Source: Escherichia phage vB_EcoS_ESCO30. From it: a stretch of DNA of 64,000 nucleotides. Positions within the stretch are counted from its first letter, which is position 1. The number at the start of each line of letters is the position of its first letter. Below, piece by piece: positions 45,099-61,139 of this stretch. The notes beneath the pieces were generated by a model. The model was not told where the DNA came from. It saw only the letters and a list, made by a program, of their open reading frames with translations, and did no database searches. Made by a program: the position numbers and the translations under genes. The stretch lies in sequence record NC_106513.1. The stretch is one strand, 5' to 3'.

Positions 45099-45800
45099 AT
45101 GAAAGTAAAACCATTTGGTATGTTAGATATTGAATCTCTAGGAACCCCAGGAGATTGTGGTACTACTCATATCGTAATGCCTTCTTTCGCTTTTGTGGCT
45201 ATGCATGGAATTGATAAAGATCCTGATCTAGTGTTTGTTACTTTGGATGTACAAGATCAGCTTAATTCTGGAGCCAAAGTTACGGCATCTACTCTAGCAT
45301 TCTGGATGGATCAAGCTAAAAATAGCCCATCAGCTCTCCATATTATGGAAGCTATGAAGGAATGCAATCCAAAGCTGATTGCTTTTCAAGATGGTAAACA
45401 TCACTGTACTAATAAGCTTGGCTCTAACTATGCAGCTTATTCTATGGCTAAAAACATTATGGAGTTGGCTCTAGGCGAAAATACTTTGTATTATGGCAAT
45501 GGCCCAGAATTTGATATGACTATCTATTCTGCAAATACGTTCCATGCTGGAACCAATGAAGAGGTAATTCCGTGGAAATTCTGGAATTTGGGTAATGTTC
45601 GATCTCTTCGTAATCTCTGGATGCAAGCTGGATATAGTTACAAAGACCTAGAAGCTGAGGGGATTAGCTGGGCAAAAGCTAAGATGGAGAAGATGGACAC
45701 CATTCGTTATGGGATCTATCCGGTTAAGCATGATCCTGCATTTGATGCCTTAGTTGAAAGCTATTGTGTTGCAGCTATGATCGAAAAAATGAAAATTTGA
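45099..45800 (+). CDS. putative 3'-5' exonuclease (DEDDh family)
   Basis: MLDIESLG (Exo I D-x-E), NGPEFD (Exo II), HDPAFD (Exo III H-x4-D) motif order. Confidence 0.5.
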   Translation: MKVKPFGMLDIESLGTPGDCGTTHIVMPSFAFVAMHGIDKDPDLVFVTLDVQDQLNSGAKVTASTLAFWMDQAKNSPSALHIMEAMKECNPKLIAFQDGKHHCTNKLGSNYAAYSMAKNIMELALGENTLYYGNGPEFDMTIYSANTFHAGTNEEVIPWKFWNLGNVRSLRNLWMQAGYSYKDLEAEGISWAKAKMEKMDTIRYGIYPVKHDPAFDALVESYCVAAMIEKMKI

Positions 45801-47128: not shown

Positions 47129-47157
47129 TTGCTAATTTATTAAGTTTTCTGTATAAT
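47129..47157 (+). promoter_or_regulatory. sigma70-like early promoter
   Basis: TTGCTA-17-TATAAT. Confidence 0.5.
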
Positions 47158-47187
47158 ATATTTTTAAATTGATGAAACGAGGCTATT

Positions 47188-47505
47188 ATGACTTTTCATA
47201 TTTTGATTGATGATGTGCGTAATCTTCACGGAATGGACATTATCATTCGAACCCCAGAAGCCGCTGTCGAGTTTCTGAATAAAACTGATACCACAGGCCA
47301 CTTCGTTTATATGGATAATGACTTGGCTGTAGATGGTATGGAAGGTTATCAAATTCTTCGTTTACTCTTAGAATTTGGGCAGAGACCAAAGAAAGTGGTA
47401 CTAGTAACCTCGAATCCCGTAGCTAAGCAAACTATGCGTAATGATTTGCTTGACTTGGGATACAAAGAAAACCCCAATCGTATTGAATATGATTGGCAGG
47501 AGTAA
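47188..47505 (+). CDS. hypothetical protein with receiver (CheY-like) domain-like motif pattern
   Basis: ILIDDV N-terminal acidic pair, YMDNDLAVDGMEG mid acidic pocket, VVLVTS, downstream Lys: order typical of REC domains. Confidence 0.35.
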   Translation: MTFHILIDDVRNLHGMDIIIRTPEAAVEFLNKTDTTGHFVYMDNDLAVDGMEGYQILRLLLEFGQRPKKVVLVTSNPVAKQTMRNDLLDLGYKENPNRIEYDWQE

Positions 47506-47510: not shown

Positions 47511-47960
47511 ATGAAGGCAGCTTTGCTTTTAGTAGCTGCCCTTACCTTCAGCTTTAGTAGTCAGGCATCGCACGATGCAAAAGAAATAGATTGCATTGCT
47601 AAAAATATCTATTTCGAAAGTCGTGGTGAGGGCATAAAGGGAATGACGGCGATTGCACATGTTACTAAAAACCGTGTAAACTCCGGTAAATTCCCAGATT
47701 CCTACTGTAAAGTAGTATATCAGTCTAACCAGTTCTCTTGGGTATCTAAGAGACCAAAAGTTGATAAAACTGATGAGGCTTGGCAAACCGCTAAGAATTT
47801 AGCTAGAGTGATATACTACGTTGATTTACCACAAGATCCTACATATGGAGCACTTTACTTCCATAGTGGTAAAGATAAACCTTACTGGACAAAGAAGTTT
47901 AAGAAAACAACTAAGATTAAGGGACATACGTTTTATAAACCTGTTGTCACTAAAACTTAA
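47511..47960 (+). CDS. secreted SleB/CwlJ-like cell wall hydrolase (Hydrolase_2 family)
   Basis: Signal peptide MKAALLLVAALTFSFSSQA; IAKNIYFESRGE...AIAHVTKNRV motif block. Confidence 0.55.
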   Translation: MKAALLLVAALTFSFSSQASHDAKEIDCIAKNIYFESRGEGIKGMTAIAHVTKNRVNSGKFPDSYCKVVYQSNQFSWVSKRPKVDKTDEAWQTAKNLARVIYYVDLPQDPTYGALYFHSGKDKPYWTKKFKKTTKIKGHTFYKPVVTKT

Positions 47961-48679: not shown

Positions 48680-48902
48680 ATATTCATAAATTAGAGAACA
48701 GCGAGCCGATTACGCTGAGTGCAGAATCCCAACCGGAGCGCATTGAATAGAGTCGGTGGGTTAGTTGGAAAACTAGTACACAGGGGGCGGCAATCCCGGT
48801 TAGTGGCTAGAACGTGTAAAATGAGGCGTCTGAAACCTCTCCCCTAAACTCTTCTCTAATTTACTGATAGTGGGGTGTGGAAATCACTTATGTAGTAACA
48901 CT

Positions 48903-48974
48903 GCCGATCTAGTATAAACGGTATTATCAAGCCGTAACTGGTGGAAGATGTAGGTTCGAATCCTACGGTCGGTA
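48903..48974 (+). tRNA. tRNA-like element (anticodon not assignable)
   Basis: 7-bp acceptor pairing (2 G-U) and consensus T-arm GTAGG-TTCGAAT-CCTAC; D and anticodon arms do not fold canonically. Confidence 0.3.
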
Positions 48975-49476
48975 AGAACTGGATAACTGGTGCTTTTAAC
49001 GTAAAAGCTTCCGAGGTTAGTTGCGCACTGCCTAAACCACGCGGTAGTTGGTTCCAGACTAACCAACCAGTCTGCTGAATAGTTTTATTACGATTTAACT
49101 ATGTCCAGGCATAAAGAAGAACTTTAGAAGGTATTCTAGGTAGTGAAGTTTTTCCTCCATATCGGAGTAGTTTTTCAAGCTATCCACAAAGTGGGAAATG
49201 ATGGCATGAGAGATGCCACTAATGGTGCACAATAGCACAGGTAATTCGCGATAACCCCTGTTGAGTAGCAGCAAAAAGGTGGGGAGTCATGACCCTAACC
49301 TAACCGAGTCCTCAGTATACCGCAGGACATAACCACTAAGTCACCTTGACTTAAACTGGAAAATAATAGACGTTACTGTATTTTGTCTTGAAATACTTAA
49401 TGAGTGAGACTTATGACTCTCCCGGTATCGTCTGTATTTTTAAGAGTTTTTACGAGAGTTCTTAAAAATACTTAAA

Positions 49477-49548
49477 CGGGGTGTAGTCTAAGGGAGAGGC
49501 AGGAGTCTTCTAAATTCCTTTATGCAGGTTCGAATCCTGTCACCTCGG
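49477..49548 (+). tRNA. tRNA-Arg (anticodon TCT)
   Basis: Hand-folded cloverleaf; loop CTTCTAA; T-arm GCAGG-TTCGAAT-CCTGT; encoded CCA. Confidence 0.6.
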
Positions 49549-49585
49549 CCAATTTTATTAACTGTAACTAAGACAAAGGAAATAT

Positions 49586-50533
49586 ATGTTTAATACTAAA
49601 AATATGAAAGAACTGACTTCTGAGCAAAAAGTAATTCGCACTATTAAACGTTGGGGTATTGGTGCTGTAGTTGGTTTAGCAGGTTTAATCCTAGCTTTTA
49701 ATTCATATACTATTGTTTCTGATGGTACGGTTAAAACCCAAACATTTCTGGGTAAAGTAGATCCTAACCCAGTATTACCTGGTTTCCATCTTGTAAACCC
49801 ATTTGCATCTTTCGATACTTTTAGTACAAAAGATATTGCTGTAAAATTAGATAAACTTCAGGTTCCTAGCCAGGATAAGTTTAAATCCACTGTTGACCTG
49901 ACTGTTATGTTACAATTTGATGGTTCTAAGGCACCGATCAACCGTATTAACGCAGGTACTCAGGATCAGGCGTTAGATAAGTATGTAACTGAGAAATTGC
50001 TATCTACTATTCGTGAATTTGGTAAGTCTGTTCCTAAAGCACAAGATTTGTTTGACGCTAAAATTCAGGCACAATTGCAAACCGCAATTCAACAGGAAGT
50101 TGAAGAGTATGCACGCCCCTATGGTTACACAGTTAAGCAAGTATTCCTTCAGGATATTACATTGCCACCGGTAATTATGGAACAGGTACAGAATACCAAA
50201 GTTCGTGAAGAACAAGTTAATGCTGCGAAAGCTGAATTGGCTCGTGTTGAACAAGAAGCACAGCAGAAGGTTAAACAAGCAGAAGCAGATCGTGAAGCTC
50301 GTAACAACCAAGCTATTGCAAACGAACGTGATGCAGATGCTAAACTGTACGCAGCTAAGAAAGAAGCTGAAGCTAACGCTGCTCTGCAACGTACTATTAC
50401 TCCTGAGATGATTCGTTGGAAACAACTAGAAGTTGAAATGATTCGTGCTCAGAAATATCAAGGTGGTGTACCGCAAACAGTAGTTGGCACTGGTTACGAT
50501 GGCCAGATGATTATGGATATGCGTAACAAGTAA
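49586..50533 (+). CDS. SPFH/band-7 (prohibitin/HflC-like) domain membrane protein
   Basis: N-terminal TM helix, ...PGFHLVNPF... SPFH start motif, long C-terminal coiled coil. Confidence 0.55.
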   Translation: MFNTKNMKELTSEQKVIRTIKRWGIGAVVGLAGLILAFNSYTIVSDGTVKTQTFLGKVDPNPVLPGFHLVNPFASFDTFSTKDIAVKLDKLQVPSQDKFKSTVDLTVMLQFDGSKAPINRINAGTQDQALDKYVTEKLLSTIREFGKSVPKAQDLFDAKIQAQLQTAIQQEVEEYARPYGYTVKQVFLQDITLPPVIMEQVQNTKVREEQVNAAKAELARVEQEAQQKVKQAEADREARNNQAIANERDADAKLYAAKKEAEANAALQRTITPEMIRWKQLEVEMIRAQKYQGGVPQTVVGTGYDGQMIMDMRNK

Positions 50534-50557
50534 TACCCACATGTAATATTCGAAGTA

Positions 50558-50596
50558 AGCCCTGCGTTCCCTGGAGAGCGCAGGGCTTTTCTGTAT
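50558..50596 (+). terminator. rho-independent terminator
   Basis: GCCCTGCG-loop-CGCAGGGC hairpin followed by TTTTCTG. Confidence 0.65.
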
Positions 50597-50607
50597 TTAA
50601 GGTAAAA

Positions 50608-50645
50608 GAAAAGCCCCTAAGTCTTTCGACTAGGGGCTTTATTGT
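50608..50645. terminator. second hairpin terminator (bidirectional)
   Basis: GCCCCTAG-TCTTTCGA-CTAGGGGC hairpin with A-run upstream and T-run downstream. Confidence 0.6.
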
Positions 50646-50653
50646 TTGGTTCT

Positions 50654-50848
50654 TTAGAACCATATACTCTTATTACAGCAACCACCCATACGGGAGGCCA
50701 ATCTTGACTGAAAATCTACTCTAGGGGGCAGGATAAGAGTAGGCTTAAAGGCAAAGGGATTGAACGCCGGTATTTGTGTAAACATTGCTGGAGAGCAACA
50801 ACGTGCTACAGGCATTGGGCAGCACGAAACAGATTTTCTGCAACACAT
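50654..50848 (-). CDS. hypothetical Cys-rich small protein (uncertain)
   Basis: 64 aa ORF, 8 Cys, immediately downstream of Gln-rich gene; may be non-coding. Confidence 0.2.
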   Translation of the reverse strand: MCCRKSVSCCPMPVARCCSPAMFTQIPAFNPFAFKPTLILPPRVDFQSRLASRMGGCCNKSIWF

Positions 50849-50857
50849 AATTCCTCC

Positions 50858-51274
50858 TTAGGAGTTATTATCACCATTTTGAGCTTTTGCAACTTGGCTT
50901 TGGCAGAAGCTATTAAACTTACCCATAAGTGATACAAGCTGTTTCCCATCCTCTGTCTTTGCGAAGTCTTCGAAAAGGGCTAGTACTGCCTGTCCTTCCG
51001 CAGAAACCTGCGGTTGTTGGGTTTGTTGCTGAACTTGCTGCTGAGCCACCTGTTGCTGCATTTGTTGAGGCATTTGCGACTGCCCGCTCATTTGCTGCAT
51101 CATTTGCATAGGACTCACACTTCCAGGGTTTTGCTGGAGTTGTTGCTGCATCTGTTGCGCTTCTGCTAAACGCTGTTGCAACTGTTGTAGGTAAGGGTTA
51201 TCCAGTCCCGGAACGGGCTGCTGGGAGCCCATTTGTTGATTAAATCCGTTGTTTACAAAACCATATTTACTCAT
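50858..51274 (-). CDS. Gln-rich low-complexity protein
   Basis: 138 aa; extended QQ/QM repeats; SD upstream. Confidence 0.5.
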   Translation of the reverse strand: MSKYGFVNNGFNQQMGSQQPVPGLDNPYLQQLQQRLAEAQQMQQQLQQNPGSVSPMQMMQQMSGQSQMPQQMQQQVAQQQVQQQTQQPQVSAEGQAVLALFEDFAKTEDGKQLVSLMGKFNSFCQSQVAKAQNGDNNS

Positions 51275-51295
51275 AATGGGCTCCTCCCCTTAATT

Positions 51296-52276
51296 TTAAG
51301 CCGGCAGTTTAGCCTGCAGACCAGCCAGAGTCTGAGTGATAGCACCAAGACTTACAGCGATTTGGTTGATTACCTGACCGTTTGCACCACTACCTGCAGC
51401 GATTGCTTCGCGCAGACGGCATTCATTCAGTTCGTCCTGGATACGTGCAGTAGTTACACCAGCGATTGCAGTCTGAAGCTCACAGCAACATTCAGCAAGC
51501 TGACGTTCGATAGCGTTCTGGTTAGCACACATCTGAGCCTGAACAGCGGCAAACTGGTTGTTGGTCTGAATAGACTGCTGGAAAGCAATCTGAGCAGAGT
51601 CAAACTTATCTTGAGCACGTGCTATCTGGTTAGCAGCGAAAGACTGATCCATCTGACGAGAAAGATCGAACTGACCCTGAATAACGTTACGAGTTTCAGC
51701 ACAGATCTGATTTGACAGATTAGCACCTGTACCATAGATAGTAGTCAGAACTTGCTGAGTGCTAGCAGCTTGAGCAGCTCCCACACCGTTTACTGCGCTT
51801 AGAACAGCCCCAGTGCCCTGGTTAGCTTCTGTACGAGTAGTATTGATTGCAGCTAGAATACTTGCAGTATCTTGGTTAGAAAGGATCGCGTCCACAGCAG
51901 TTCCTTCAGCGGCAACACCAACACCGCGACCAAAACCACCAAAACCACCAAATCCGCCTGTTAATAGAGCACCGATTAGGATAGCTCCGAATAGACCCAT
52001 ACCTTCTCCACCGAAAGCACTTGCGTTAGCTGGGAATGCACCCATGCCAGGGAAGCCGTTAGTAAATACGTTTACTGGTTCTTGCATTTTATGTTTTCCA
52101 TATTTATGACAATGTTCATCATCGTCATCTTCTTCATCTTTATCATCGTGTTCACGATGTTCTTCTTCGTAGGCTTTGACTTTCTCCCACTTTTTCTTAT
52201 CTGATTCCTCGTGACGATGCAGTTCTGCTGCTACGCTAGCGACGGTTTCAGGACTCTTAGCTACTTCTTCTGTCAT
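51296..52276 (-). CDS. hypothetical protein with acidic/His-rich N-terminus and Gly-rich hydrophobic segment
   Basis: Start set at MTEEV after strong AGGAGGTG SD; GLFGAILIGALLTGGFGGFGGFG segment; Ala/Gln-rich coiled C-terminus. Confidence 0.55.
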   Translation of the reverse strand: MTEEVAKSPETVASVAAELHRHEESDKKKWEKVKAYEEEHREHDDKDEEDDDDEHCHKYGKHKMQEPVNVFTNGFPGMGAFPANASAFGGEGMGLFGAILIGALLTGGFGGFGGFGRGVGVAAEGTAVDAILSNQDTASILAAINTTRTEANQGTGAVLSAVNGVGAAQAASTQQVLTTIYGTGANLSNQICAETRNVIQGQFDLSRQMDQSFAANQIARAQDKFDSAQIAFQQSIQTNNQFAAVQAQMCANQNAIERQLAECCCELQTAIAGVTTARIQDELNECRLREAIAAGSGANGQVINQIAVSLGAITQTLAGLQAKLPA

Positions 52277-52483
52277 TTTTTGACACCTCCTAGTATATAG
52301 AAAATGTGTGTCTCTTTGATCACTCATCCATAACATATACTTTACACTACCCCGGCGAAAATGTCAAGGGGTCTTTAAAAATTGCCCCCGGATTTTTAGT
52401 GGGGTCACAAATTTTGGTCCTCACCACTTATCTGCTACCCTTAAGTGCCCTATGATTTTCCCCTAAAAAGTTAAAAAATTTGA

Positions 52484-52512
52484 TTGCTTGAATGCTAAAT
52501 TCTCTGTATAAT
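52484..52512 (+). promoter_or_regulatory. sigma70-like early promoter
   Basis: TTGCTT-17-TATAAT plus conserved leader. Confidence 0.5.
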
Positions 52513-53061
52513 ATATCTATAAATTTGAGAGAGGAACCAAATATGAATGTTGATGAGCTAACACAGCACCTCTTATCTAGGGGATTTGATACTGATAAAT
52601 ATCATTGCTGGTTAAGTCCGGAAGGATGGCTAACAGTCCCGTTGTATGATTTCTCTGGGATGTTGAGGGGCTATCAAACTTATAATCCTTCTGCTCCAAA
52701 AGGTCATGGTAAGTGCCCCCTTGAAGCTAAATACTTTACTTATTCTACCACCCAGTGTGTATGGGGACTAGAAACTCTCAATGGAGATGAAAAAGTAGTA
52801 TTGATCGCTGAATCTGTATTTAAGGCAGTTGCGTTACATAACGCTGGTTATCCAGCCATAGCAATGTTGGGTTCTTCTCCAGGAAAAGCGTTATTAAAGC
52901 AACTAAAATTACTACCTTTTAAATTGGTAGCTGTTGGTGATAATGATCCTGCTGGTGAAAAATTTGCTAGAAAATTAAACGGTTTTGTTTCTCCCGTAGA
53001 TGTGGATGAGATGTCTACCGAAAACTTGAAAAATTTTCTTGCTATGAAGCTAAATTTCTAA
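52492..53061 (+). CDS. hypothetical protein
   Basis: 189 aa ORF; probable start at internal Met MNVDELT after GAGAGAGG SD. Confidence 0.45.
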   Translation: MLNSLYNISINLREEPNMNVDELTQHLLSRGFDTDKYHCWLSPEGWLTVPLYDFSGMLRGYQTYNPSAPKGHGKCPLEAKYFTYSTTQCVWGLETLNGDEKVVLIAESVFKAVALHNAGYPAIAMLGSSPGKALLKQLKLLPFKLVAVGDNDPAGEKFARKLNGFVSPVDVDEMSTENLKNFLAMKLNF

Positions 53062-53081
53062 TATAATATATCTTATAAATT

Positions 53082-53168
53082 CGGAAGAATAGCATAACGG
53101 TATTGCAGCAGATTGCTAATCTGTCGGTTTGAAATATAGCCTTGTGGGTTCGATTCCCACTTCTTCCG
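53082..53168 (+). tRNA. tRNA-Ser (anticodon GCT), type II
   Basis: Loop TTGCTAA; long variable arm; T-arm GTGGG-TTCGATT-CCCAC; encoded CCA. Confidence 0.6.
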
Positions 53169-53177
53169 CCAGATTTT

Positions 53178-53252
53178 GGTTCTCAAGCTCATATGGTATG
53201 AGCACCCGGCTCATAACCGGAAGGTACGTAGGTTCGAATCCTCGGGGAGCCA
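53178..53252 (+). tRNA. tRNA with CAT anticodon (Met or Ile-lysidine)
   Basis: Acceptor and D-arm fold well; loop CTCATAA; T-stem has mismatches. Confidence 0.45.
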
Positions 53253-53275
53253 CCAACTTAATTAGGGGATTACAA

Positions 53276-53464
53276 GTGGAATTATACATAGTTTATGTTG
53301 TGTTCATTCAAGATAGAGAATACCCTGATGAATATAAAAAAGGATATAGATTAGCCAGAGCTACCTCTGAAGCCCAAGCTATGGATAAAGTGGCAGATTA
53401 TATGATTACGGTAGAAAACGTACACTATATCGACTACCTTGAAGCCTCAAAAGTAATTGACTAG
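53276..53464 (+). CDS. hypothetical small protein (GTG start, uncertain)
   Basis: Portion of the 53129-53464 ORF not overlapping tRNAs; AGGGG SD 7 nt upstream of GTG. Confidence 0.25.
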   Translation: MELYIVYVVFIQDREYPDEYKKGYRLARATSEAQAMDKVADYMITVENVHYIDYLEASKVID

Positions 53465-53473
53465 GGAGACTAT

Positions 53474-53659
53474 ATGTCTAAGTTTCAAGAACTCAAGCAA
53501 GAGCTAGAAGAATGTGCCTGCCCTGAATGTCTGGGGATTGGAGAAAGTTCTGATGCAGAAGCAGGAGATACTTTTTGCAATATCTGGGTTTGCCCAAATT
53601 GCAATGGTACAGGTATTAATCCTAACTGTGGTATTTCTCTAGATATTGAAAGAGGATAA
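53474..53659 (+). CDS. hypothetical Cys-rich zinc-ribbon-like small protein
   Basis: 61 aa; CACPEC...CPNCNGTG cysteine pairs. Confidence 0.4.
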   Translation: MSKFQELKQELEECACPECLGIGESSDAEAGDTFCNIWVCPNCNGTGINPNCGISLDIERG

Positions 53660-53761
53660 TACCTGTGAAACTAAAAGATTATTATATTGGTTGGTTTGTG
53701 GGACTAGTAGTAGGATTTTCACTAGGCTATAATATGTATCAACTAATAAACTGATTACACG

Positions 53762-53835
53762 GGGGGTGTAATCGAATTGGCATAGGTACTGGACTTAAAA
53801 TTCAGGTTTTGTGGGTTCGAATCCCACCACCCCTA
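53762..53835 (+). tRNA. tRNA with TAA anticodon (Leu-type anticodon, short variable loop)
   Basis: Acceptor GGGGGTG/CACCCCT; loop CTTAAAA; T-arm GTGGG-TTCGAAT-CCCAC; encoded CCA. Confidence 0.45.
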
Positions 53836-54013
53836 CCAAATTAAGGAAATAAGATGTATAGACATCCACCTCCGCCAACACGTCGTTCTAGGGAAGTCAT
53901 CCTTATGGAATTGACTAAAAACTTCAAGGCAACTCTTGAAGATAGAGATCTAGGCACGGATGAAGATATTGATTTTATTTGTAGACTATTAAAGATGAAA
54001 CTGGAGAAACAAC

Positions 54014-54220
54014 ATGGCTAATCCTGAAATTACCGCACAACGTTTCATGCTTAAAGGCATGATTGCTGAGGCAGGTATAACTCAAGAGGTTGCAGATTTT
54101 CATAAGCAATTTCTTGACATTATAACTCTAGCTAAAGAGACTGGAGAAAAAGAACATGGAGCGGCAATTATGGCTATATCTCTTATTAGTCTAGACTTGG
54201 CTGAAGAATCTGGAGTTTAG
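54014..54220 (+). CDS. hypothetical protein
   Basis: 68 aa ORF. Confidence 0.4.
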   Translation: MANPEITAQRFMLKGMIAEAGITQEVADFHKQFLDIITLAKETGEKEHGAAIMAISLISLDLAEESGV

Positions 54221-54250
54221 CTCCTCCAAACAGAATTTTTAAAAATGTAC

Positions 54251-54280
54251 TTGCCTTTTGCTTTAAATTTCTGATATAAT
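54251..54280 (+). promoter_or_regulatory. sigma70-like early promoter
   Basis: TTGCCT-18-TATAAT plus conserved leader. Confidence 0.45.
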
Positions 54281-54310
54281 AGTTATATAAATTGATGAAG
54301 GAGTTAACGA

Positions 54311-54586
54311 ATGCAAAATCGTGTTATAGCAGCTGGTATTGAAAGTGCAATCTGTAAATCCTGGGAAGGCTGGGAAGGTGAGATTGAATGGCTTTATTTC
54401 TATGATGTAGAACTTCTGCCGGAAGTTAAAGCTAAATGTGTTAAAGCTGGCATGGCTCCGGATGCAAAAGCTGATATTGATATTTCAATGTCTGAACTTA
54501 AAGGTCGTGTAGTTACCGTTAGTAATGAGGGGGAAGAAGTTTTCGAACTTCCATTCTCCTTAACTGTCACTCCTAAGTTCGACTAA
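54311..54586 (+). CDS. hypothetical protein
   Basis: 91 aa ORF with GGAG SD. Confidence 0.45.
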   Translation: MQNRVIAAGIESAICKSWEGWEGEIEWLYFYDVELLPEVKAKCVKAGMAPDAKADIDISMSELKGRVVTVSNEGEEVFELPFSLTVTPKFD

Positions 54587-54622
54587 CTAATACAGCACTG
54601 AGCAAGTTCTTTAAAATTTGAC

Positions 54623-54651
54623 TTGCTCAGTGCCTTAAAACTTGGTATAAT
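54623..54651 (+). promoter_or_regulatory. sigma70-like promoter inside terminator-like hairpin
   Basis: TTGCTC-17-TATAAT; -35 lies within GCACTGAGCAAG...CTTGCTCAGTGC inverted repeat. Confidence 0.45.
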
Positions 54652-54716
54652 AGTTATCTAATTTGGAAACATATTTAAAAGTGTTTAAATTAGAATTTTT
54701 GAATACTTCTAAATAT

Positions 54717-54801
54717 GGGCGTTTATTCCGTAAGTGGTAGCGGAGGGGATTGTAAATCCCTGGTCATTGCGACTCGAGTGGTTCGACTCCATTAACGCCC
54801 A
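54717..54801 (+). tRNA. tRNA-Tyr (anticodon GTA), type II
   Basis: Acceptor GGGCGTT/AACGCCC; loop TTGTAAA; long variable arm; T-arm AGTGG-TTCGACT-CCATT; encoded CCA. Confidence 0.6.
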
Positions 54802-54821
54802 CCAAATTAAAGGTAAAGGAT

Positions 54822-55313
54822 ATGTATATTGATCGGATAATTCAAGAAGCTGCAAATAGAGGTATTATACAGTTGGGTTCACCAGCTGATATAAATAAAG
54901 ATCTAATATTAGAAAGCCTCACATTTGGTACAGCTAACTTTGGTCGCGATAGTAATCGTCGATATAGCTTGAAGTTATCTGCACTATCTTTTATCAAGTA
55001 TAACAAAAGTATTGGAGAAAAATCCAGCTGTGGTTTTATTTACGCAATAACTAACCCAGCTTGGGATAACTATGTAAAAATTGGTATGTCTTCTGATCCT
55101 AAAACAAGATTAAGAAATTACCAAACCTATTCTCCTTTACGTGATTATAAGTTAATACATTGGTCATTTTGGTTTAATGCTAGAGAAGCGGAGAAAATGC
55201 TTCATAATAGCTTTCCTGAACGGCTTAATGAATGGGTAGTGTTAGACAGAGGTGTAGACGAAATACTTTCCGAGTTTAACAATTTATCCAATAAGCAATT
55301 TAAGTCCTGTTAG
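54822..55313 (+). CDS. T5orf172/GIY-YIG-related domain protein
   Basis: GFIYAITNPAWDNYVKIGMSSDPKTRLRNYQT motif block. Confidence 0.55.
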   Translation: MYIDRIIQEAANRGIIQLGSPADINKDLILESLTFGTANFGRDSNRRYSLKLSALSFIKYNKSIGEKSSCGFIYAITNPAWDNYVKIGMSSDPKTRLRNYQTYSPLRDYKLIHWSFWFNAREAEKMLHNSFPERLNEWVVLDRGVDEILSEFNNLSNKQFKSC

Positions 55314-55377
55314 ACAAACTGGTAAAGTCACTACCCTTTCAAGGTAGGATTTGCGGGTTCGATCCCCGCACAGGACG
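55304..55377 (+). tRNA. tRNA-Glu (anticodon TTC)
   Basis: Acceptor GTCCTGT/ACAGGAC; loop CTTTCAA; T-arm GCGGG-TTCGATC-CCCGC; 5' end overlaps stop codon of upstream CDS. Confidence 0.6.
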
Positions 55378-55386
55378 CCAATTTCT

Positions 55387-55462
55387 GCATTCCTAGAGTG
55401 TTACTGGACAGCATGTCGGTCTCCAAAACCGTACGGTCTAGGTTCGAGTCCTAGTAGGTTTG
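55387..55462 (+). tRNA. tRNA-like gene, possible Trp (CCA anticodon), acceptor stem unresolved
   Basis: T-arm CTAGG-TTCGAGT-CCTAG and CGGT-CTCCAAA-ACCG anticodon hairpin; acceptor pairing not found by eye. Confidence 0.3.
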
Positions 55463-55471
55463 CCAAAATTT

Positions 55472-55543
55472 GCACCTTTAGCTGAGATGGATTAGCGCTT
55501 GCCTGAAGAGCTTGAGAGGTTCGTTCGATTCGAACAGGGTGCA
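55472..55543 (+). tRNA. tRNA (possibly Phe, GAA), anticodon stem imperfect
   Basis: Acceptor GCACCTT/AGGGTGC; D-arm and T-arm GTTCG-TTCGATT-CGAAC fold; loop CTGAAGA with two stem mismatches. Confidence 0.4.
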
Positions 55544-55557
55544 CCAATTTGAAGGAG

Positions 55558-55836
55558 ATGCTGATGCATCCTGAAAACTTCTTTATTTACTGCGCGGATA
55601 AGTCGCTGAAACGTAGAATTAATAAAGTCTATCATTATCGTGCTAGTCAACAGCCTTATGTATATGCTTTTGACGGTGATCACATCCCACTAGAACAATT
55701 ATCTTGTGATTACATGATATTGAAGAACTTTGACGAGACGAAGATCTCAAGCGTTCATAATCGACAGAATCCTTTAACGTGGAAATATAAGAGGAAAAAG
55801 AAAGGCATCAAATTCTTAAAAAATGTAGTTGCTTAG
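55558..55836 (+). CDS. hypothetical protein
   Basis: ORF beginning after tRNA; GGAG SD upstream. Confidence 0.4.
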   Translation: MLMHPENFFIYCADKSLKRRINKVYHYRASQQPYVYAFDGDHIPLEQLSCDYMILKNFDETKISSVHNRQNPLTWKYKRKKKGIKFLKNVVA

Positions 55837-55857
55837 TTTCCAAAAGTTCTGTATAAT
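55829..55857 (+). promoter_or_regulatory. sigma70-like early promoter
   Basis: TTGCTT-17-TATAAT; overlaps 3' end of upstream ORF. Confidence 0.5.
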
Positions 55858-55886
55858 AATTACATAAATTGAACTGGAGAAGCGAC

Positions 55887-56111
55887 ATGACAGAACAAGA
55901 ATTGAATGAACGTAAGTTGGTAATGCTTCGCTTACTAAATATTTTCTCTGGTATGGATGGTGGAATTGACTTTGTTCATCTACGTTCTTTCGTAGAAGAA
56001 GCCGAGGGCGAATCTATCACTAAAATCCTTAAACACATGGGATTACTTTTAGACGCTGCTAATGTGGCTACTGAATATAAACTAGAAGATCTACCAGAGC
56101 GTGTTAAATGA
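55887..56111 (+). CDS. hypothetical protein
   Basis: Start at MTEQEL after GGAGAAG SD. Confidence 0.45.
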   Translation: MTEQELNERKLVMLRLLNIFSGMDGGIDFVHLRSFVEEAEGESITKILKHMGLLLDAANVATEYKLEDLPERVK

Positions 56112-56299
56112 AACGATTAGTTAGATTTAAGTGTTGTGGTTCCGAGCACATTTTCACACATCTTCGTGAATTTAAAATGTGCGATTGTGGTAAATCAGGC
56201 TATGACTCAGGAGATGGGTTCTACACCCGTACTCTAGGGAACTTCAATGATCTAGAATTTGAAGATCTCGAAAAACAAGATAAATCGACCGTTGGCTGA
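56108..56299 (+). CDS. hypothetical Cys-containing small protein
   Basis: 63 aa; CCGSEH...CDCG motif; translationally coupled. Confidence 0.4.
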   Translation: MKRLVRFKCCGSEHIFTHLREFKMCDCGKSGYDSGDGFYTRTLGNFNDLEFEDLEKQDKSTVG

Positions 56300-56358
56300 A
56301 TGGCTTAGGCGAAGGATTGCAAATCCTTTTTATGTGAGTTCAAATCTCATGCGGTCGT
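56286..56358 (+). tRNA. tRNA-Cys (anticodon GCA)
   Basis: Acceptor CGACCGT/GCGGTCG; loop TTGCAAA in AAGGA/TCCTT stem; T-arm GTGAG-TTCAAAT-CTCAT; overlaps 3' end of upstream CDS. Confidence 0.6.
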
Positions 56359-56513
56359 CCAATTTGCTGAAAGAATTGTTAAATCAATTCAGGCACGCGT
56401 AGGAACACTGTCTCCGTAATTGAAAGATGAGGCACGGTTTGGAGAGGTATGCCGCTACACGCTACGGTGCTAACTCCGTCTAGGTGAAAATCCTAGTCAG
56501 CAATATAAATTTA

Positions 56514-56593
56514 GGGTCGTTAGCCAAGCGGTTTGGCGGTGGACTGTTAATCCATGTCGAAAGACAACGTAGGTTCGAATCCTACACGGCCCG
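56514..56593 (+). tRNA. tRNA with GTT (Asn) anticodon and extended variable arm
   Basis: Acceptor GGGTCGT/ACGGCCC; D-stem GCCA/TGGC; loop CTGTTAA; 13-nt variable hairpin GTCGAAAGAC; T-arm GTAGG-TTCGAAT-CCTAC. Confidence 0.5.
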
Positions 56594-56698
56594 CCAAATT
56601 CTGTGTAGAGTTAAGTAAACCGGTAGCCAACCAGCTATCATTGCTGACATCGAATTCAGCCACAGATACCATTTTCATTAATAATTGAGGAAACAAGC

Positions 56699-56884
56699 AT
56701 GTCCAAGAATGTAATTGCACAGCTAGAAGTTCATCGTGATAGCACTATCAACAATATTGAAGTTGAGAAGAAATACATCGAAGAACTTAAACATGATATA
56801 CTAGTAAGTCTCAATCGTCTTAATGTACGAAAAGAGTTTCTTAAAGAACTTAATGCAGCTATTGAAAAACTCAAAGCTGAGTAA
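56699..56884 (+). CDS. hypothetical coiled-coil small protein
   Basis: 61 aa ORF with GAGGAAA SD. Confidence 0.4.
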   Translation: MSKNVIAQLEVHRDSTINNIEVEKKYIEELKHDILVSLNRLNVRKEFLKELNAAIEKLKAE

Positions 56885-56893
56885 ATAAATTAT

Positions 56894-56967
56894 GCGACCG
56901 GGGCTGGCTTGGTAATGGTACTCCCCTGTCACGGGAGGGAATGTGGGTTCAAATCCCATCGGTCGCG
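56894..56967 (+). tRNA. tRNA-Asp (anticodon GTC)
   Basis: Perfect acceptor GCGACCG/CGGTCGC; CTCCC-CTGTCAC-GGGAG anticodon arm; T-arm GTGGG-TTCAAAT-CCCAT; encoded CCA. Confidence 0.65.
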
Positions 56968-56995
56968 CCAAATTAATTTAGTATGAGAATATACT

Positions 56996-57343
56996 ATGCG
57001 TAATGCCAAAGAAGAGTTGTTACTTGCCTTAAAAAATACTAATTCTGAAGTTAAGTGTATTAAAATAGAATTCGGGTATTATGGGGATAAAAAAGTTTGG
57101 GTATTACCTTTAGGTTATACAGAAGAAGACATTGAGGATTTTCTTAATAACCTAGACTTTGAATATGATTCTGGATATGGTGGACAATTACTTTATGGTA
57201 ATGTATGGTTTGCCGACGGAACTTGGCTAGAACGTGGGGAATATGACGGTGCTGAGTGGTGGGAATACAAGGCCACCCCGGCAATCCCAGAGGAATGCCG
57301 AACAATTAATGGTGAAGTAGACAATACTTTACGGTTAAACTAA
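56996..57343 (+). CDS. hypothetical protein
   Basis: 115 aa ORF. Confidence 0.45.
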   Translation: MRNAKEELLLALKNTNSEVKCIKIEFGYYGDKKVWVLPLGYTEEDIEDFLNNLDFEYDSGYGGQLLYGNVWFADGTWLERGEYDGAEWWEYKATPAIPEECRTINGEVDNTLRLN

Positions 57344-57351
57344 TAAAATTT

Positions 57352-57424
57352 CAGTGCGTAGCGCAGTTGGTAGCGTGGGATCCTTGGATGATTCGGGTCG
57401 CAGGTTCGAGTCCTGCCGCACTGA
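57352..57424 (+). tRNA. tRNA-Pro (anticodon TGG)
   Basis: Acceptor CAGTGCG/CGCACTG; GGATC-CTTGGAT-GATTC anticodon arm; T-arm GCAGG-TTCGAGT-CCTGC; encoded CCA. Confidence 0.65.
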
Positions 57425-57433
57425 CCAAACAAT

Positions 57434-57506
57434 TGCGGGTGGGAGGCATAGAGTTCTTCTTAGTCTCATAAGCTAAGTAAGTCCAGGGCAGTACTGGAAC
57501 CCGCTA
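57434..57506 (+). tRNA. tRNA-like gene with CAT anticodon and non-canonical T-loop
   Basis: 6-bp acceptor pairing; loop CTCATAA; T-arm TCCAG-GGCAGTA-CTGGA lacks TTCRA consensus. Confidence 0.35.
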
Positions 57507-57527
57507 CCAATTTCAAGAAAAACGCAG

Positions 57528-57556
57528 TTGCTTAATGCTTAATTTCTTGTTATAAT
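57528..57556 (+). promoter_or_regulatory. sigma70-like promoter driving an untranslated leader into tRNA genes
   Basis: TTGCTT-17-TATAAT; followed by GATGAGGAGAAATCCTCATC hairpin, no ORF before tRNA-Ala. Confidence 0.5.
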
Positions 57557-57794
57557 ATTTATATAAATTGATGAGGAGAAATCCTCATCATAGTTCACTA
57601 AGGTATTAGCTCGACCTAGGACTGGCTGCCAAAAAGCACGATCCCTACTATTTGGGAGAAGTTCTAGATTAGTCCACTAGATTCAGCGGCAACTGAATAG
57701 TGTATTGGGTTTGCGAGATGACGCAGTTCCTTCCGCTCGAAGCGAAGGTGCTGTAGTTACGCCGAGCTAATAGCCTTAGTAAACTAAAGAATTT

Positions 57795-57866
57795 GGGCGA
57801 ATAGTGTCAGCGGGAGCACACCAGACTTGCAATCTGGTAGGGAGGGTTCGAGTCCCTCTTTGTCCA
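57795..57866 (+). tRNA. tRNA-Ala (anticodon TGC)
   Basis: Acceptor GGGCGAA/TTTGTCC (G-U pairs); D-stem GTGT/GCAC; CCAGA-CTTGCAA-TCTGG; T-arm GAGGG-TTCGAGT-CCCTC; encoded CCA. Confidence 0.65.
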
Positions 57867-57874
57867 CCAAATTC

Positions 57875-57956
57875 GGGGCTATGCTGGAACTGGTAGACAA
57901 TACGGCCTTAGATTCCGTAGCTTAAATGCGTGGGAGTTCGAGTCTCCCTAGCCCCA
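57875..57956 (+). tRNA. tRNA-Leu (anticodon TAG), type II
   Basis: Perfect acceptor GGGGCTA/TAGCCCC; loop CTTAGAT; long variable region; T-arm GGGAG-TTCGAGT-CTCCC; encoded CCA. Confidence 0.5.
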
Positions 57957-57976
57957 CCAACTCATAGGATTTATGT

Positions 57977-58561
57977 ATGCAGTTTGTACCAGTAAAAGAT
58001 GCACCAGGGTATTTAGTAAATGAGGCGGGGGATGTGTTCTCTACATTTACTAATAAAGTTTTATCAAGATATATAGTTGATGGATACCCTGCTGTAAAAT
58101 TACAGATAAATGGTAAACAAACCTCTGTACTTATACACCGAATTATTTCTCATGTATTTGGGGACTTATATAATCTATTTGACCCTGAATTAGAGGTAGA
58201 TCATAAGGATAGAGATAGACTGAATCTATCTAAAGATAATCTTCAAGTCCTATCAAAAATAGAACATCAGAGGAAAACTAATAAAGATAATGGGTGGTCT
58301 GACAGTAGAGTACCTTGCCCCCTATGTGGGAGTCTAATGCTTCAGAGATCTGTAACATGTACAAATTGTAAGCCAAAACCTACAGGAAGGTTGATAAAAC
58401 CAGAATTGTCTTTAGACGACATAACTGAAAAGGTTTTATTAATGGGGTGGGTTAAGGCAGCTAAAGAGTTAGAAGTATCAGAGTCCACTTTGCGCAGGAG
58501 GTATACTAAACTAACTGGATTAAGCCCAAAAGTATTAACAGAACAACGGAAAAGCAAATAG
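57977..58561 (+). CDS. HNH homing endonuclease (NUMOD-like N-terminus + HNH)
   Basis: ...LIHRIISHVFGDL...EVDHKDRDRLNLSKDNLQVLSKIEHQRK... HNH core; embedded in tRNA cluster. Confidence 0.65.
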   Translation: MQFVPVKDAPGYLVNEAGDVFSTFTNKVLSRYIVDGYPAVKLQINGKQTSVLIHRIISHVFGDLYNLFDPELEVDHKDRDRLNLSKDNLQVLSKIEHQRKTNKDNGWSDSRVPCPLCGSLMLQRSVTCTNCKPKPTGRLIKPELSLDDITEKVLLMGWVKAAKELEVSESTLRRRYTKLTGLSPKVLTEQRKSK

Positions 58562-58638
58562 ACTGGCGACTAAACCCGATTGGAAATCGGTTGAGTAATA
58601 GCAATATTGCCTTATGGGTTCAACTCCCATCTTTTCCG
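58548..58638 (+). tRNA. tRNA-Ser (anticodon GGA), type II
   Basis: Perfect acceptor GGAAAAG/CTTTTCC; ACCGA-TTGGAAA-TCGGT anticodon arm; long variable arm; T-arm ATGGG-TTCAACT-CCCAT; overlaps 3' end of HNH CDS. Confidence 0.5.
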
Positions 58639-58648
58639 CCAAACAAAT

Positions 58649-58735
58649 GGAAGATAGGACGTAGTGGTACGTAACTGGTCTTGAAAACCAGCCCGCTGTA
58701 GTGATACGGTGATGGTTCGACTCCATTATCTTCTG
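58649..58735 (+). tRNA. tRNA-Ser (anticodon TGA), type II
   Basis: Acceptor GGAAGAT/ATCTTCT; perfect CTGGT-CTTGAAA-ACCAG anticodon arm; long variable arm; T-arm GATGG-TTCGACT-CCATT; encoded CCA. Confidence 0.6.
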
Positions 58736-58754
58736 CCAACTTATAGGGTAATAT

Positions 58755-59378: not shown

Positions 59379-59406
59379 CCAAATTAACTTAAATAGGAAA
59401 TAAAAT

Positions 59407-61138: not shown

Positions 61139-61139
61139 T

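What the first reader, a model, noticed from the sequence alone, without database searches (positions are those of the whole stretch)
47188..47505. Small protein with receiver (CheY-like) domain residue pattern
The 105-aa product has acidic and hydroxyl residues in the order expected for a response-regulator receiver domain (N-terminal DD in ILIDDV, central Asp in YMDNDLAVDGMEG, Thr/Ser in VVLVTS, downstream Lys). A stand-alone receiver-like protein in a phage could act as a phosphate sink or decoy for host two-component signalling. The call rests on motif order only.
Basis: inference. Interest (0 to 1): 0.45.

Follow-up and report, generated by a model that had tools for sequence, protein, structure and literature searches.

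The report
Phage T5-type cREC receiver-fold protein
This small T5-like phage gene does encode a stripped-down CheY-like receiver fold, but it belongs to the already named, never tested "cREC" family, which is linked to RNA repair and NAD metabolism rather than to two-component signalling.

Summary
The 105-aa ORF at 47188-47505 (+) is real. It has its own promoter-like site and ribosome-binding site, and it lies in a T5-like phage (Tequintavirus) at the 5' edge of a 22-gene tRNA cluster.

Across 140 diverse family clusters, D8, D9 and D43 (equivalent to CheY D12, D13, D57) are invariant and T/S74 (T87) is always a hydroxyl residue. The receiver Lys (K109) has no conserved counterpart. The family has its own conserved residues: R11, R21, D45 and N76.

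The idea of a phosphate sink or decoy for host two-component systems is not supported.

In relatives, cREC sits between RNA ligase 1 and a sirtuin (rV5), or in a cREC-kinase-Rnl1-phosphoesterase operon (L035), often beside tRNA clusters. The most likely role is a small aspartate-based phosphoesterase in phage RNA-end or ADP-ribose-phosphate processing.

Near-identical orthologs are already labelled cREC in public databases, but no member has been tested experimentally.

The parts
47129..47157 (+). Sigma-70-type promoter-like site (TTGCTA, 17 nt, TATAAT), about 30 nt upstream of the start codon. It is bracketed by a 17-nt inverted repeat (47113-47129 / 47155-47171).
   Evidence: 10 of 12 consensus matches; the number of such sites in the region is not above the shuffle expectation, so this is suggestive only. 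(inverted repeat I2, 94% complementary).
47179..47182 (+). Shine-Dalgarno-like GAGG, 5 nt before the ATG.
   Evidence: Read directly from the sequence.
47188..47505 (+). cREC-family (PF20274) receiver-fold protein, 105 aa. Key codons: D8-D9 at 47209-47214, R11 at 47218-47220, R21 at 47248-47250, D43-N44-D45 at 47314-47322, T74 at 47407-47409, N76 at 47413-47415.
47511..47960 (+). SleB-like cell-wall hydrolase (Pfam Hydrolase_2) with a hydrophobic, signal-like N-terminus. It starts 5 nt after the cREC stop codon and is probably co-transcribed. Any functional link to cREC is unproven.
   Evidence: A homolog lies next to cREC in the unrelated contig L043.
48199..48642 (+). YqeY/GatB-C-like protein (PHROG label 'tRNA amidotransferase'), between cREC and the tRNA genes.
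   Evidence: 25.4 bits, just under the cutoff of 27; phrog_1460, E = 3e-47.
48902..61387 (+). Cluster of 22 tRNA genes on the same strand, starting 1.4 kb downstream of cREC.
45099..45800 (+). Rv2179c-like 3'-5' exoribonuclease-domain protein, 1.4 kb upstream on the same strand.
   Evidence: 33.1 bits against a cutoff of 27; phrog_255, exonuclease.
31862..32698 (-). Phage sirtuin (SIR2). It belongs to the same clade (54.8% identity) as the rV5 sirtuin that lies directly next to the rV5 cREC. Here it is 14.5 kb from cREC on the opposite strand.
31200..31706 (-). HAD_SAK_2 'Swiss Army Knife' RNA-repair phosphatase next to the sirtuin. This is the SP15-type sirtuin-HAD neighbourhood described in the literature.
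   Evidence: 73 bits against a cutoff of 27.5; PMC9503650.

Best explanation
The gene encodes a member of the cREC family (PF20274), a minimal receiver-fold protein with five strands and three helices. Canonical helices α1 and α5 are deleted.

It keeps the receiver's phosphoryl-chemistry pocket: D8/D9 (the metal-binding pair in receivers), D43 (the phospho-accepting or nucleophilic Asp) and T74. It has lost the receiver Lys. It has gained family-specific conserved residues in the loops at the same edge of the sheet: R11, R21, H/N44, D45 and N76.

I infer that it is not a signalling switch but a small soluble enzyme. It would use an aspartyl-phosphate-type mechanism, with D43 as nucleophile and D45 at the 'Asp+2' position acting as general acid/base, as in the HAD motif DxD. 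The two arginines would hold the substrate phosphates.

The likely substrate is a phosphate or cyclic phosphate on RNA 3' ends, or on the ADP-ribose phosphate by-products of NAD-dependent RNA repair. The gene appears to be expressed from its own sigma-70-type promoter at the head of the tRNA gene cluster. It would work alongside the phage's sirtuin and HAD_SAK phosphatase to keep phage and host tRNAs usable after attack by host ribonucleases.

Shown here: family membership, fold, residue conservation, absence of the two-component features, and the gene linkages in relatives.
Inferred: catalysis, the roles of individual residues, the substrate, and the biological purpose.
For: Family and fold:
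- PF20274 matches at 54.9 bits against a cutoff of 27.
- Orthologs 93-98% identical are already named 'cyclic-phosphate processing receiver domain-containing protein' by NCBI and UniRef.
- The AlphaFold model has pLDDT 91.3 and pTM 0.85.
- Foldseek agrees against PDB and against viral models.

Pocket:
- D8, D9 and D43 are conserved in 100%; T/S74 in 100%; D45 and N76 in 99%; R21 in 98%; R11 in 94% of 140 clusters.
- The register against CheY and other receivers is confirmed.
- In the model these residues sit in the loops that follow strands β1, β2, β3 and β4.

Context in relatives:
- rV5: Rnl1, then cREC (52.3 bits), then Sir2 and a MazG-like gene, with a divergently transcribed P-loop kinase and a calcineurin-like phosphoesterase.
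- L035: a contiguous cREC-kinase-Rnl1-phosphoesterase operon downstream of six tRNA genes.
- Vibrio phage D479: a tRNA cluster, then Sir2, then cREC.
- Unbiased clustering of neighbours in 38 lineages ranks SIR2 and the rV5-type phosphoesterase first, at 5 lineages each.
- The Pfam tally of nearest neighbours includes AAA_33 x4, RNA_lig_T4_1 x2 and RtcB x1.
- 9 of 36 non-redundant loci have tRNA genes within 8 kb, all on the cREC strand, and 6 of these have clusters of 6-27.

This window:
- cREC sits at the head of 22 tRNA genes.
- It is flanked by an exoribonuclease-like gene and a YqeY-like gene.
- The sirtuin plus HAD_SAK_2 module is present in the same genome.

Literature: the family was defined and given this prediction in PMC7824862 and PMC9503650.
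Against: - No member of the family has been tested experimentally. The 2022 paper states this, and I found nothing later in the held library.
- In this window cREC is not adjacent to the sirtuin-HAD pair (14.5 kb away, opposite strand). No RNA ligase was found among the roughly 45 window ORFs I scanned.
- About three quarters of family loci have only small neighbours of unknown function.
- The tRNA proximity was not tested against a null model.
- Receiver- and HAD-type aspartate chemistry is established for phosphomonoester and acyl-phosphate transfer, not for opening cyclic diesters. The 'cyclic phosphate' substrate is therefore the weakest step.
- I had no model coordinates, so the pocket geometry is inferred from secondary-structure positions and alignments only.
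- The window protein departs from the family consensus DHDLG: it reads DNDLA (N44, A47).
Confidence: 0.5

Rival explanations
1. Counter-defence enzyme or sponge for immune nucleotide signals. The cREC pocket would bind, and perhaps cleave, small phosphate-containing second messengers made by host defence systems. Examples are TIR/Thoeris cyclic ADP-ribose isomers, 2',3'-cyclic nucleotides and cyclic oligonucleotides. This would blunt abortive-infection signalling early in infection.
For: - The defining papers list cADPr-type molecules as alternative substrates and note linkage to WYL sensors.
- L009, an integrase-bearing element, has WYL-WCX and SIR2 genes within 4.5 kb of a cREC.
- L005 has cREC in a block containing an ArdA anti-restriction gene and AbiEii.
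- Most phage copies sit among small early-type genes with their own promoters, as known anti-defence genes typically do.
- The small single-domain size suits either an enzyme or a sponge.
Against: - No linkage to any particular defence system or signal was found.
- There is no hit in PADLOC, though that library holds defence proteins, not anti-defence proteins.
- The strongest operonic contexts (rV5, L035) are RNA heal-and-seal cassettes rather than anti-signalling loci.
Confidence: 0.2
2. Non-catalytic pseudo-receiver. The fold would serve as a protein-protein interaction or regulatory module, for example controlling the co-transcribed SleB-like wall hydrolase or a host protein. The acidic pocket would then be a binding site rather than a catalytic site.
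For: - The hydrolase gene starts 5 nt after the cREC stop.
- A homologous hydrolase lies next to cREC in the unrelated contig L043.
- Pseudo-receivers are a known phenomenon (my own knowledge).
- Ribosomal L7/L12 C-terminal-domain proteins lie directly downstream of cREC in 5 loci, which could hint at protein partners.
Against: - Strict invariance of three aspartates plus T/S, with near-invariance of D45, N76, R11 and R21, at 26-64% overall identity is the signature of a chemical active site. Pseudo-receivers typically lose these residues.
- The hydrolase adjacency is seen in only 2 of about 39 lineages.
Confidence: 0.1
3. One reading: a genuine stand-alone response-regulator receiver, phosphorylated by host histidine kinases or by acetyl phosphate, that drains or decoys host two-component signalling.
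For: The DD / D / T pocket needed for autophosphorylation from small-molecule donors is intact, and the fold is receiver-like.
Against: - It fails the Response_reg gathering threshold.
- Helix α1, the kinase-docking helix, is deleted; α5 and the conserved Lys are absent.
- The family is never linked to histidine kinases in the literature.
- No kinase family is among the 25 commonest Pfam families in 149 neighbours.
- Family-specific conserved residues (R11, R21, D45, N76) point to a different substrate.
Confidence: 0.05

Closest known systems
cREC (cyclic-phosphate processing Receiver) domain family, Pfam PF20274; defined by Iyer, Anantharaman, Krishnan, Burroughs and Aravind 2021 (PMC7824862) and revisited in 2022 (PMC9503650)
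   Same: The protein scores well above the family cutoff. It has the family's invariant aspartates, T/S and N, the stand-alone size of about 100 aa, phage origin, and no histidine-kinase partner. The same genome encodes the sirtuin clade that accompanies cREC elsewhere. Near-identical T5-like orthologs already carry this name in NCBI and UniProt.
   Different: In T5-like phages the gene is not in the sirtuin / RNA-ligase neighbourhood that motivated the family's predicted function. It sits at the head of the tRNA cluster, next to a SleB-like hydrolase. The motif reads DNDLA instead of the consensus DHDLG. The 2022 paper calls the site 'metal-independent with two aspartates'. My alignment shows the full receiver-type metal-binding DD pair plus the D-x-D as invariant or nearly so, which to me suggests Mg2+-dependent chemistry (inference).
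Canonical response-regulator receiver domains (CheY, Spo0F; Pfam PF00072 Response_reg)
   Same: Flavodoxin-like parallel β-sheet. The acidic pair after β1, the Asp after β3, the Gly of the 'MDG' turn, the Pro before β4, the T/S after β4 and an aromatic residue on β5 are all in register. These domains are the best structural matches.
   Different: No α1, no α5 and no conserved Lys. The score is below the family threshold, and there is no kinase or Hpt partner. Extra conserved Arg, Asp and Asn residues surround the pocket.
HAD-superfamily phosphatases (motif I DxDx[T/V]), including the HAD_SAK_2 RNA-repair phosphatase encoded in this same window
   Same: A mechanistic analogy only: an Asp nucleophile with a second Asp two residues later, a Mg2+-binding acidic cluster and a T/S phosphate ligand. 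The similarity between receiver and HAD active sites is established knowledge (mine, not checked here).
   Different: Different strand order and motif placement: the D-x-D follows β3, not β1. There is no cap domain and no HAD Pfam hit. It is not a member.
2H phosphoesterases, Macro domains, and the phosphatase domains of T4 Pnk / bacterial Pnkp (Metallophos)
   Same: These are proposed functional analogues. They resolve RNA 2',3'-cyclic phosphate ends or ADP-ribose cyclic or 1''-phosphates, and they occur in the same phage RNA-repair neighbourhoods.
   Different: They have unrelated folds and catalytic residues, and their activities are experimentally proven. That of cREC is not.

Membership tests
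cREC_REC (PF20274) | Sequence match to the family model above the curated threshold | tested here: met
   54.9 bits, E = 1.4e-14, against a cutoff of 27, covering model positions 2-86 of 88. All 30 close homologs carry PF20274.
cREC_REC (PF20274) | Conserved catalytic aspartates shared with receiver domains | tested here: met
   D8, D9 and D43 are invariant and D45 is 99% conserved in 140 clusters. The register with CheY D12, D13 and D57 is confirmed.
cREC_REC (PF20274) | Receiver-like Rossmannoid fold | tested here: met
cREC_REC (PF20274) | Never associated with histidine kinases | tested here: met
   No kinase was found among the window ORFs scanned. No HisKA, HATPase_c or Hpt family is among the 25 commonest Pfam families in 149 neighbours of 38 lineages (only the top 25 of 59 families were visible).
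cREC_REC (PF20274) | Gene-neighbourhood linkage to NAD+/ADPr-processing or RNA-repair genes | tested here: inconclusive
   Not adjacent in this window: the sirtuin plus HAD_SAK_2 pair lies 14.5 kb away on the other strand. The tRNA cluster, an exoribonuclease-like gene and a YqeY-like gene are adjacent. The linkage is clearly met in the relatives rV5, L035, D479, L009, L019 and L021.
cREC_REC (PF20274) | Cleavage of cyclic phosphates (the predicted activity that gives the family its name) | not testable with these tools
   No biochemical data exist for any member.
Response regulator receiver (PF00072) | Sequence match above the curated threshold | tested here: not met
   12.4 bits against a cutoff of 30.2.
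Response regulator receiver (PF00072) | Complete (β/α)5 architecture including α1 (kinase docking) and α5 | tested here: not met
   The model has strands at 4-7, 18-20, 39-42, 69-72 and 100-102 but helices only at 23-32, 53-62 and 77-90. hhalign places an 8-residue gap at α1. The chain ends about 13 residues after the β5 aromatic residue.
Response regulator receiver (PF00072) | Acidic pair, phospho-acceptor Asp and T/S | tested here: met
   D8/D9, D43 and T74 are in register.
Response regulator receiver (PF00072) | Conserved Lys after β5 (CheY K109) | tested here: not met
   The aligned position is N95, which is variable in the family. K93 is Lys in only 27 of 140 sequences.
Response regulator receiver (PF00072) | Phosphorylation by a cognate histidine kinase or by small-molecule donors | not testable with these tools
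   Requires biochemistry.
HAD superfamily phosphatases | HAD Rossmannoid fold with motif I DxD after β1, squiggle/flap and motifs II-IV | tested here: not met
   There is no HAD Pfam hit. The D-x-D follows β3. The resemblance is mechanistic only.

The most novel reading that the evidence does not exclude
cREC proteins would be the first receiver-fold enzymes that act on nucleotide-derived substrates. In T5-like phages the protein would be an early-expressed counter-defence factor. It would either destroy host immune signals carrying cyclic or ADP-ribose phosphates (for example TIR-made cADPR isomers), or clear the 2',3'-cyclic phosphate ends left by host anticodon nucleases so that tRNAs can be re-ligated by host RtcB.
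Probability: 0.2. Interest if true: 0.7.

Novelty: already known. Interest (0 to 1): 0.3.

Why it matters
The assignment itself is not new. The family was named in 2021, and T5-like orthologs already carry the label.

What remains open is the biochemistry. This is a widespread family: 431 clusters at 50% identity, 1,685 clusters at 90% identity, and essentially all T5-like phages. It has an intact receiver-type aspartate pocket and no signalling partners, and it has never been assayed.

T5 and the BASEL T5-like phages grow on E. coli K-12 and are genetically tractable. The protein is 105 aa and models confidently. This gene is therefore a convenient entry point for testing whether a receiver fold has been turned into a phosphoesterase for RNA repair or for degrading immune signals.

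For genome annotators, the practical point is that 'CheY-like' phage ORFs of this type should not be read as two-component decoys.

Tried and rejected
1. Sequence search of solved structures with the single protein and with the 140-sequence profile. The only 'significant' hit was a repeat-driven artefact to the TALE protein Hax3 (VVAIASN-type repeats). Receiver domains appear only at E = 0.01-0.3. No solved relative exists.
2. NCBIfam and PADLOC gave no hits for the protein.
3. Fusion partners: eight longer family members were scanned. The only partner found was an HNH_3 homing endonuclease (P0031), most likely a read-through or fusion artefact of a neighbouring homing endonuclease. It is not informative.
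4. The search for related loci with the full 140-sequence alignment failed because no stretch was conserved enough. It worked with a 50-sequence sub-alignment.
5. Metagenomic contexts were mostly uninformative blocks of small unknown genes.
6. Rfam found only the two tRNAs around the gene, and nothing in the 440-bp upstream spacer.
7. I could not obtain model coordinates, so no direct measurement of the Asp-pocket geometry or superposition on BeF3-bound receivers was possible.
8. I did not compute a null expectation for proximity to tRNA clusters, because only ±8 kb of each contig was available.
9. Literature searches for experimental work on cREC or on the T5 sirtuin RNA-repair idea found only the two computational papers.

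Full report
**1. The observation**

It has a GAGG ribosome-binding site 5 nt before the ATG. It also has a good sigma-70-type promoter-like site (TTGCTA, 17 nt, TATAAT) at 47129-47157, although such sites are not more frequent in this region than in shuffled sequence.

The window is a T5-like phage (Demerecviridae, Tequintavirus). The 4.5 kb around the gene are 97.5% identical to phages chee24 and IrisVonRoten (Bas32). In the chee24 and IrisVonRoten records, as in nearly all others, the ORF is annotated 'hypothetical protein'.

**2. Family assignment**

- Against Pfam, the protein matches PF20274, 'cREC_REC, cyclic-phosphate processing Receiver domain', at E = 1.4e-14 (54.9 bits against a cutoff of 27).
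- The canonical Response_reg model scores only 12.4 bits against a cutoff of 30.2.
- PHROGs places it in phrog_1479, function unknown.
- NCBIfam and PADLOC have nothing.
- All 30 close homologs carry PF20274. Several T5-like orthologs at 93-98% identity are already named 'cyclic-phosphate processing receiver domain-containing protein' by NCBI or UniRef.

The family is large. An exhaustive profile search found 431 clusters at 50% identity. The annotated collection holds 1,685 clusters at 90% identity. Nearly all are stand-alone proteins of about 100 aa. Among deposited phage genomes, tblastn finds the protein in 492 records, made up of T5-like phages plus T4-like Vibrio jumbo phages.

**3. Fold**

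An AlphaFold2 model built on 13 homologs is confident (pLDDT 91.3, pTM 0.85).

- Foldseek against the PDB also ranks receivers first, though modestly (TM 0.55-0.59, E of 2e-3 or worse).
- Foldseek against viral models returns proteins named cREC at TM 0.63-0.93.

The model has strands at 4-7, 18-20, 39-42, 69-72 and 100-102, but helices only at 23-32, 53-62 and 77-90. There is no helix between the first two strands and none after the last.

**4. The pocket, residue by residue**

I aligned 140 family clusters that are 26-64% identical to the query.

| Position | Conservation in 140 clusters | Canonical receiver equivalent |
|---|---|---|
| D8, D9 | 100% | CheY D12, D13 |
| D43 | 100% | CheY D57 (phospho-acceptor) |
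| G53 | 100% | CheY G65 |
| T/S74 | 100% (T 106, S 34) | CheY T87 |
| D45, N76 | 99% | none (family-specific) |
| R21 | 98% | none (family-specific) |
| R11, G47, P67 | 94% | R11 and G47 family-specific; P67 matches the receiver Pro before β4 |
| Y92 | 91% | CheY Y106 |
| Position 44 | His 61%, Asn 36% | variable in receivers |

The window protein reads DNDLA where the family consensus is DHDLG.

The register comes from profile comparisons with CheY alone and with five textbook receivers (88% probability, E = 3e-6). The comparison pairs D8/D9 with D12/D13, D43 with D57, G53 with G65, T74 with T87 and G91-Y92 with G105-Y106. It also places an 8-residue gap in cREC exactly where α1 lies.

CheY K109 falls on N95, a variable position. 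So four of the five hallmark receiver residues are truly conserved and homologous, the Lys is not, and the family has its own conserved set (R11, R21, D45, N76). In the model this set sits in the same loops at the C-terminal edge of the sheet.

**5.

The fold call is correct. The proposed role, a phosphate sink or decoy for host two-component systems, is not supported.

- From established knowledge of kinase-regulator complexes (my own knowledge), α1 is the main docking surface for histidine kinases. α5, together with α4 and β5, forms the output face. The Lys is needed for the phosphorylation switch. All three are missing here.
- The family's authors report that cREC never occurs with histidine kinases.
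- In my own tally of 149 nearest-neighbour ORFs from 38 non-redundant cREC loci, no kinase or Hpt family is among the 25 commonest Pfam families. Only the top 25 of 59 matched families were visible.

**6. Context in this window**

The gene lies in the early region, among nucleotide-metabolism and tRNA genes.

Upstream on the same strand:
- PhoH
- aerobic ribonucleotide reductase
- thymidylate synthase
- RNase H
- an Rv2179c-like 3'-5' exoribonuclease-domain protein (45099-45800)
- a 212-aa coiled-coil-like protein

Downstream:
- a SleB-like wall hydrolase, starting 5 nt after the cREC stop
- a YqeY/GatB-C-like protein
- 22 tRNA genes (48902-61387), interspersed with homing endonucleases and a Band_7 protein

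About 14.5 kb away on the opposite strand lie a sirtuin (31862-32698) and an adjacent HAD_SAK_2 'Swiss Army Knife RNA repair' phosphatase (31200-31706). This is the sirtuin-HAD neighbourhood that the 2022 paper typifies with phage SP15 and interprets as NAD-dependent RNA-end repair. A split NAD-dependent DNA ligase is also present.

No RNA ligase was found among the window ORFs I scanned. I did not examine the rest of the genome.

**7. Context in relatives, tested independently**

- rV5: the sirtuin there is 54.8% identical to the one in this window. The 116-aa 'hypothetical' ORF83 sits directly between RNA ligase 1 and Sir2 and is a cREC (52.3 bits). A MazG-like gene follows. A P-loop (AAA_33) kinase and a calcineurin-like phosphoesterase are transcribed divergently, and a tRNA cluster lies 4-5 kb away.
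- Vibrio phage D479: 23 tRNA genes are followed by Sir2 and, 1.7 kb further on, by cREC (54 bits).
- Viral contig L035: cREC, an rV5-like kinase, Rnl1 and an rV5-like phosphoesterase form a contiguous, partly overlapping operon downstream of six tRNA genes.
- Unbiased clustering of all ORFs within 5 kb of cREC in 38 non-redundant loci ranks SIR2 and this phosphoesterase as the two most recurrent neighbours, at five lineages each.
- The Pfam tally of the nearest neighbours (within about 1.4 kb) includes AAA_33 x4, RNA_lig_T4_1 x2, RtcB x1, SIR2 x2 and Metallophos_2 x2.
- Of the 36 non-redundant loci, nine have tRNA genes within 8 kb. Six have clusters of 6-27, and in two of these (L031, L053) cREC lies inside the cluster. 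The tRNAs are always on the cREC strand.

I could not compute a null expectation for the tRNA proximity, so it is suggestive only. Roughly three quarters of the loci have only small unknown neighbours.

**8. Most likely mechanism**

Shown:
- a receiver-derived fold
- an intact acidic, metal-type pocket with a nucleophile-position Asp and a hydroxyl residue
- loss of the signalling-specific elements
- gain of two arginines, an Asp at +2 and an Asn around the pocket
- recurrent linkage to RNA heal-and-seal and sirtuin genes and to tRNA clusters

Inferred:
- The protein is an enzyme that forms an aspartyl-phosphate-type intermediate on D43.
- D45 acts as the general acid/base, as the Asp+2 of HAD phosphatases does.
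- D8/D9 hold Mg2+, and R11/R21 bind substrate phosphates.
- The substrate is a terminal or cyclic phosphate on RNA 3' ends, or an ADP-ribose phosphate by-product of sirtuin- or KptA-type 2'-phosphate removal.

The 2022 paper describes the site as metal-independent with two aspartates. The invariance of the full DD pair makes me favour a metal-dependent site, but this is untested.

Aspartyl-phosphate chemistry is best known for monoesters. A phosphomonoesterase activity (RNA 2'- or 3'-phosphate, or ADP-ribose 1''-phosphate) therefore seems at least as plausible as opening a cyclic diester.

I put about 0.5 on this RNA/ADPr-phosphate-processing reading, 0.2 on an anti-signalling enzyme or sponge, 0.1 on a non-catalytic pseudo-receiver, and 0.05 on the two-component decoy. 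The remainder is for something not considered.

**9. Novelty and verdict**

The family was defined computationally in 2021 (PMC7824862) and discussed again in 2022 (PMC9503650), where it is stated to be experimentally uncharacterised. I found no later experimental work in the held library. Orthologs of this exact protein are already labelled cREC in public databases, so the finding is already known as an assignment.

Its residual interest is that a very widespread phage protein with an intact receiver-type catalytic pocket remains untested. T5-like phages also offer a tractable system in which the cREC, sirtuin and HAD_SAK genes are all present but unlinked.

Noticed in passing
window 48902-48975 (+): A tRNA-like gene that ARAGORN calls tRNA-Ser with the unusual anticodon ACT. 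It passes the Rfam tRNA threshold (36.8 bits against 29). It is not annotated as a tRNA in the 97.5%-identical phage IrisVonRoten, where small ORFs are annotated instead.
   Followed up: partly
window 45099-45800 (+): This 233-aa ORF is annotated 'metallopeptidase' in some GenBank records, while re-annotated RefSeq records of the region list an 'exonuclease'. It matches the Rv2179c-like 3'-5' exoribonuclease domain (33.1 bits against a cutoff of 27) and the PHROG exonuclease family. The peptidase label looks wrong, and an RNA exonuclease next to the tRNA region may be relevant to RNA processing.
   Followed up: partly
window 46107-46745 (+): This 212-aa protein matches a PHROG family labelled 'tail fiber protein' (E = 8.7e-82). 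It lies in the early nucleotide-metabolism region and has no supporting Pfam domain, so the label is doubtful.
   Followed up: no
window 47511-47960 (+); L043 7474-7890: A SleB-like cell-wall hydrolase (Hydrolase_2) with a signal-like N-terminus starts 5 nt after the cREC stop. A homolog lies about 100 nt upstream of cREC in an otherwise unrelated viral contig (L043). The adjacency therefore recurs in two of roughly 39 lineages and is unexplained.
   Followed up: partly
window 49586-50533 (+); L040 7427-8320: A Band_7/SPFH-domain protein is encoded inside the tRNA region, 2 kb downstream of cREC. A homolog lies about 470 nt downstream of cREC in contig L040, and Band_7 occurs twice in the nearest-neighbour tally.
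   Followed up: no
L006-L008 6312-6674; cluster L025 8320-8877 / L029 424-786 / L034 774-1334 / L036 2182-2739: In L006-L008 a protein with a ribosomal L7/L12 C-terminal domain overlaps the end of the cREC gene, and the Pfam tally found 5 such neighbours in all. A conserved ORF directly downstream of cREC in L025, L029, L034 and L036 probably accounts for most of them, but the tool did not say which members matched. A phage-encoded L12-like protein is unusual and hints at a link to translation.
   Followed up: no
window 47113-47129 / 47155-47171: A 17-nt inverted repeat (94% complementary) brackets the -35 and -10 elements of the cREC promoter-like site and could be an operator. A second GTATAAT(C/A)TATT copy lies at 46848-46859.
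   Followed up: no
window 31200-32698 (-): A sirtuin plus HAD_SAK_2 'Swiss Army Knife' RNA-repair phosphatase pair, flanked by two DUF7415 genes (30367-31197). The sirtuin clade occurs in 993 phage records, including rV5-like, Klebsiella and Vibrio phages, and its proposed RNA 2'-phosphate-removal role is untested.
   Followed up: partly
L016 11406-12848; L014 7377-8870; L047 9444-10880; L035 15653-16276: A protein of about 480 aa, annotated 'RNA-binding protein' (Pfam DUF2828 + DUF7788), lies 1-2 kb downstream of cREC in T4-like Vibrio phages and 7 kb downstream in L035.
   Followed up: no
window 23530-24195 (-), 35206-36111 (-), 54822-55313 (+): Several T5orf172/MUG113 (GIY-YIG-like) and HNH_3 homing-endonuclease genes are scattered through the window. 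One metagenomic relative (P0031) has an HNH_3 domain fused in frame to cREC, probably a homing-endonuclease insertion artefact.
   Followed up: partly
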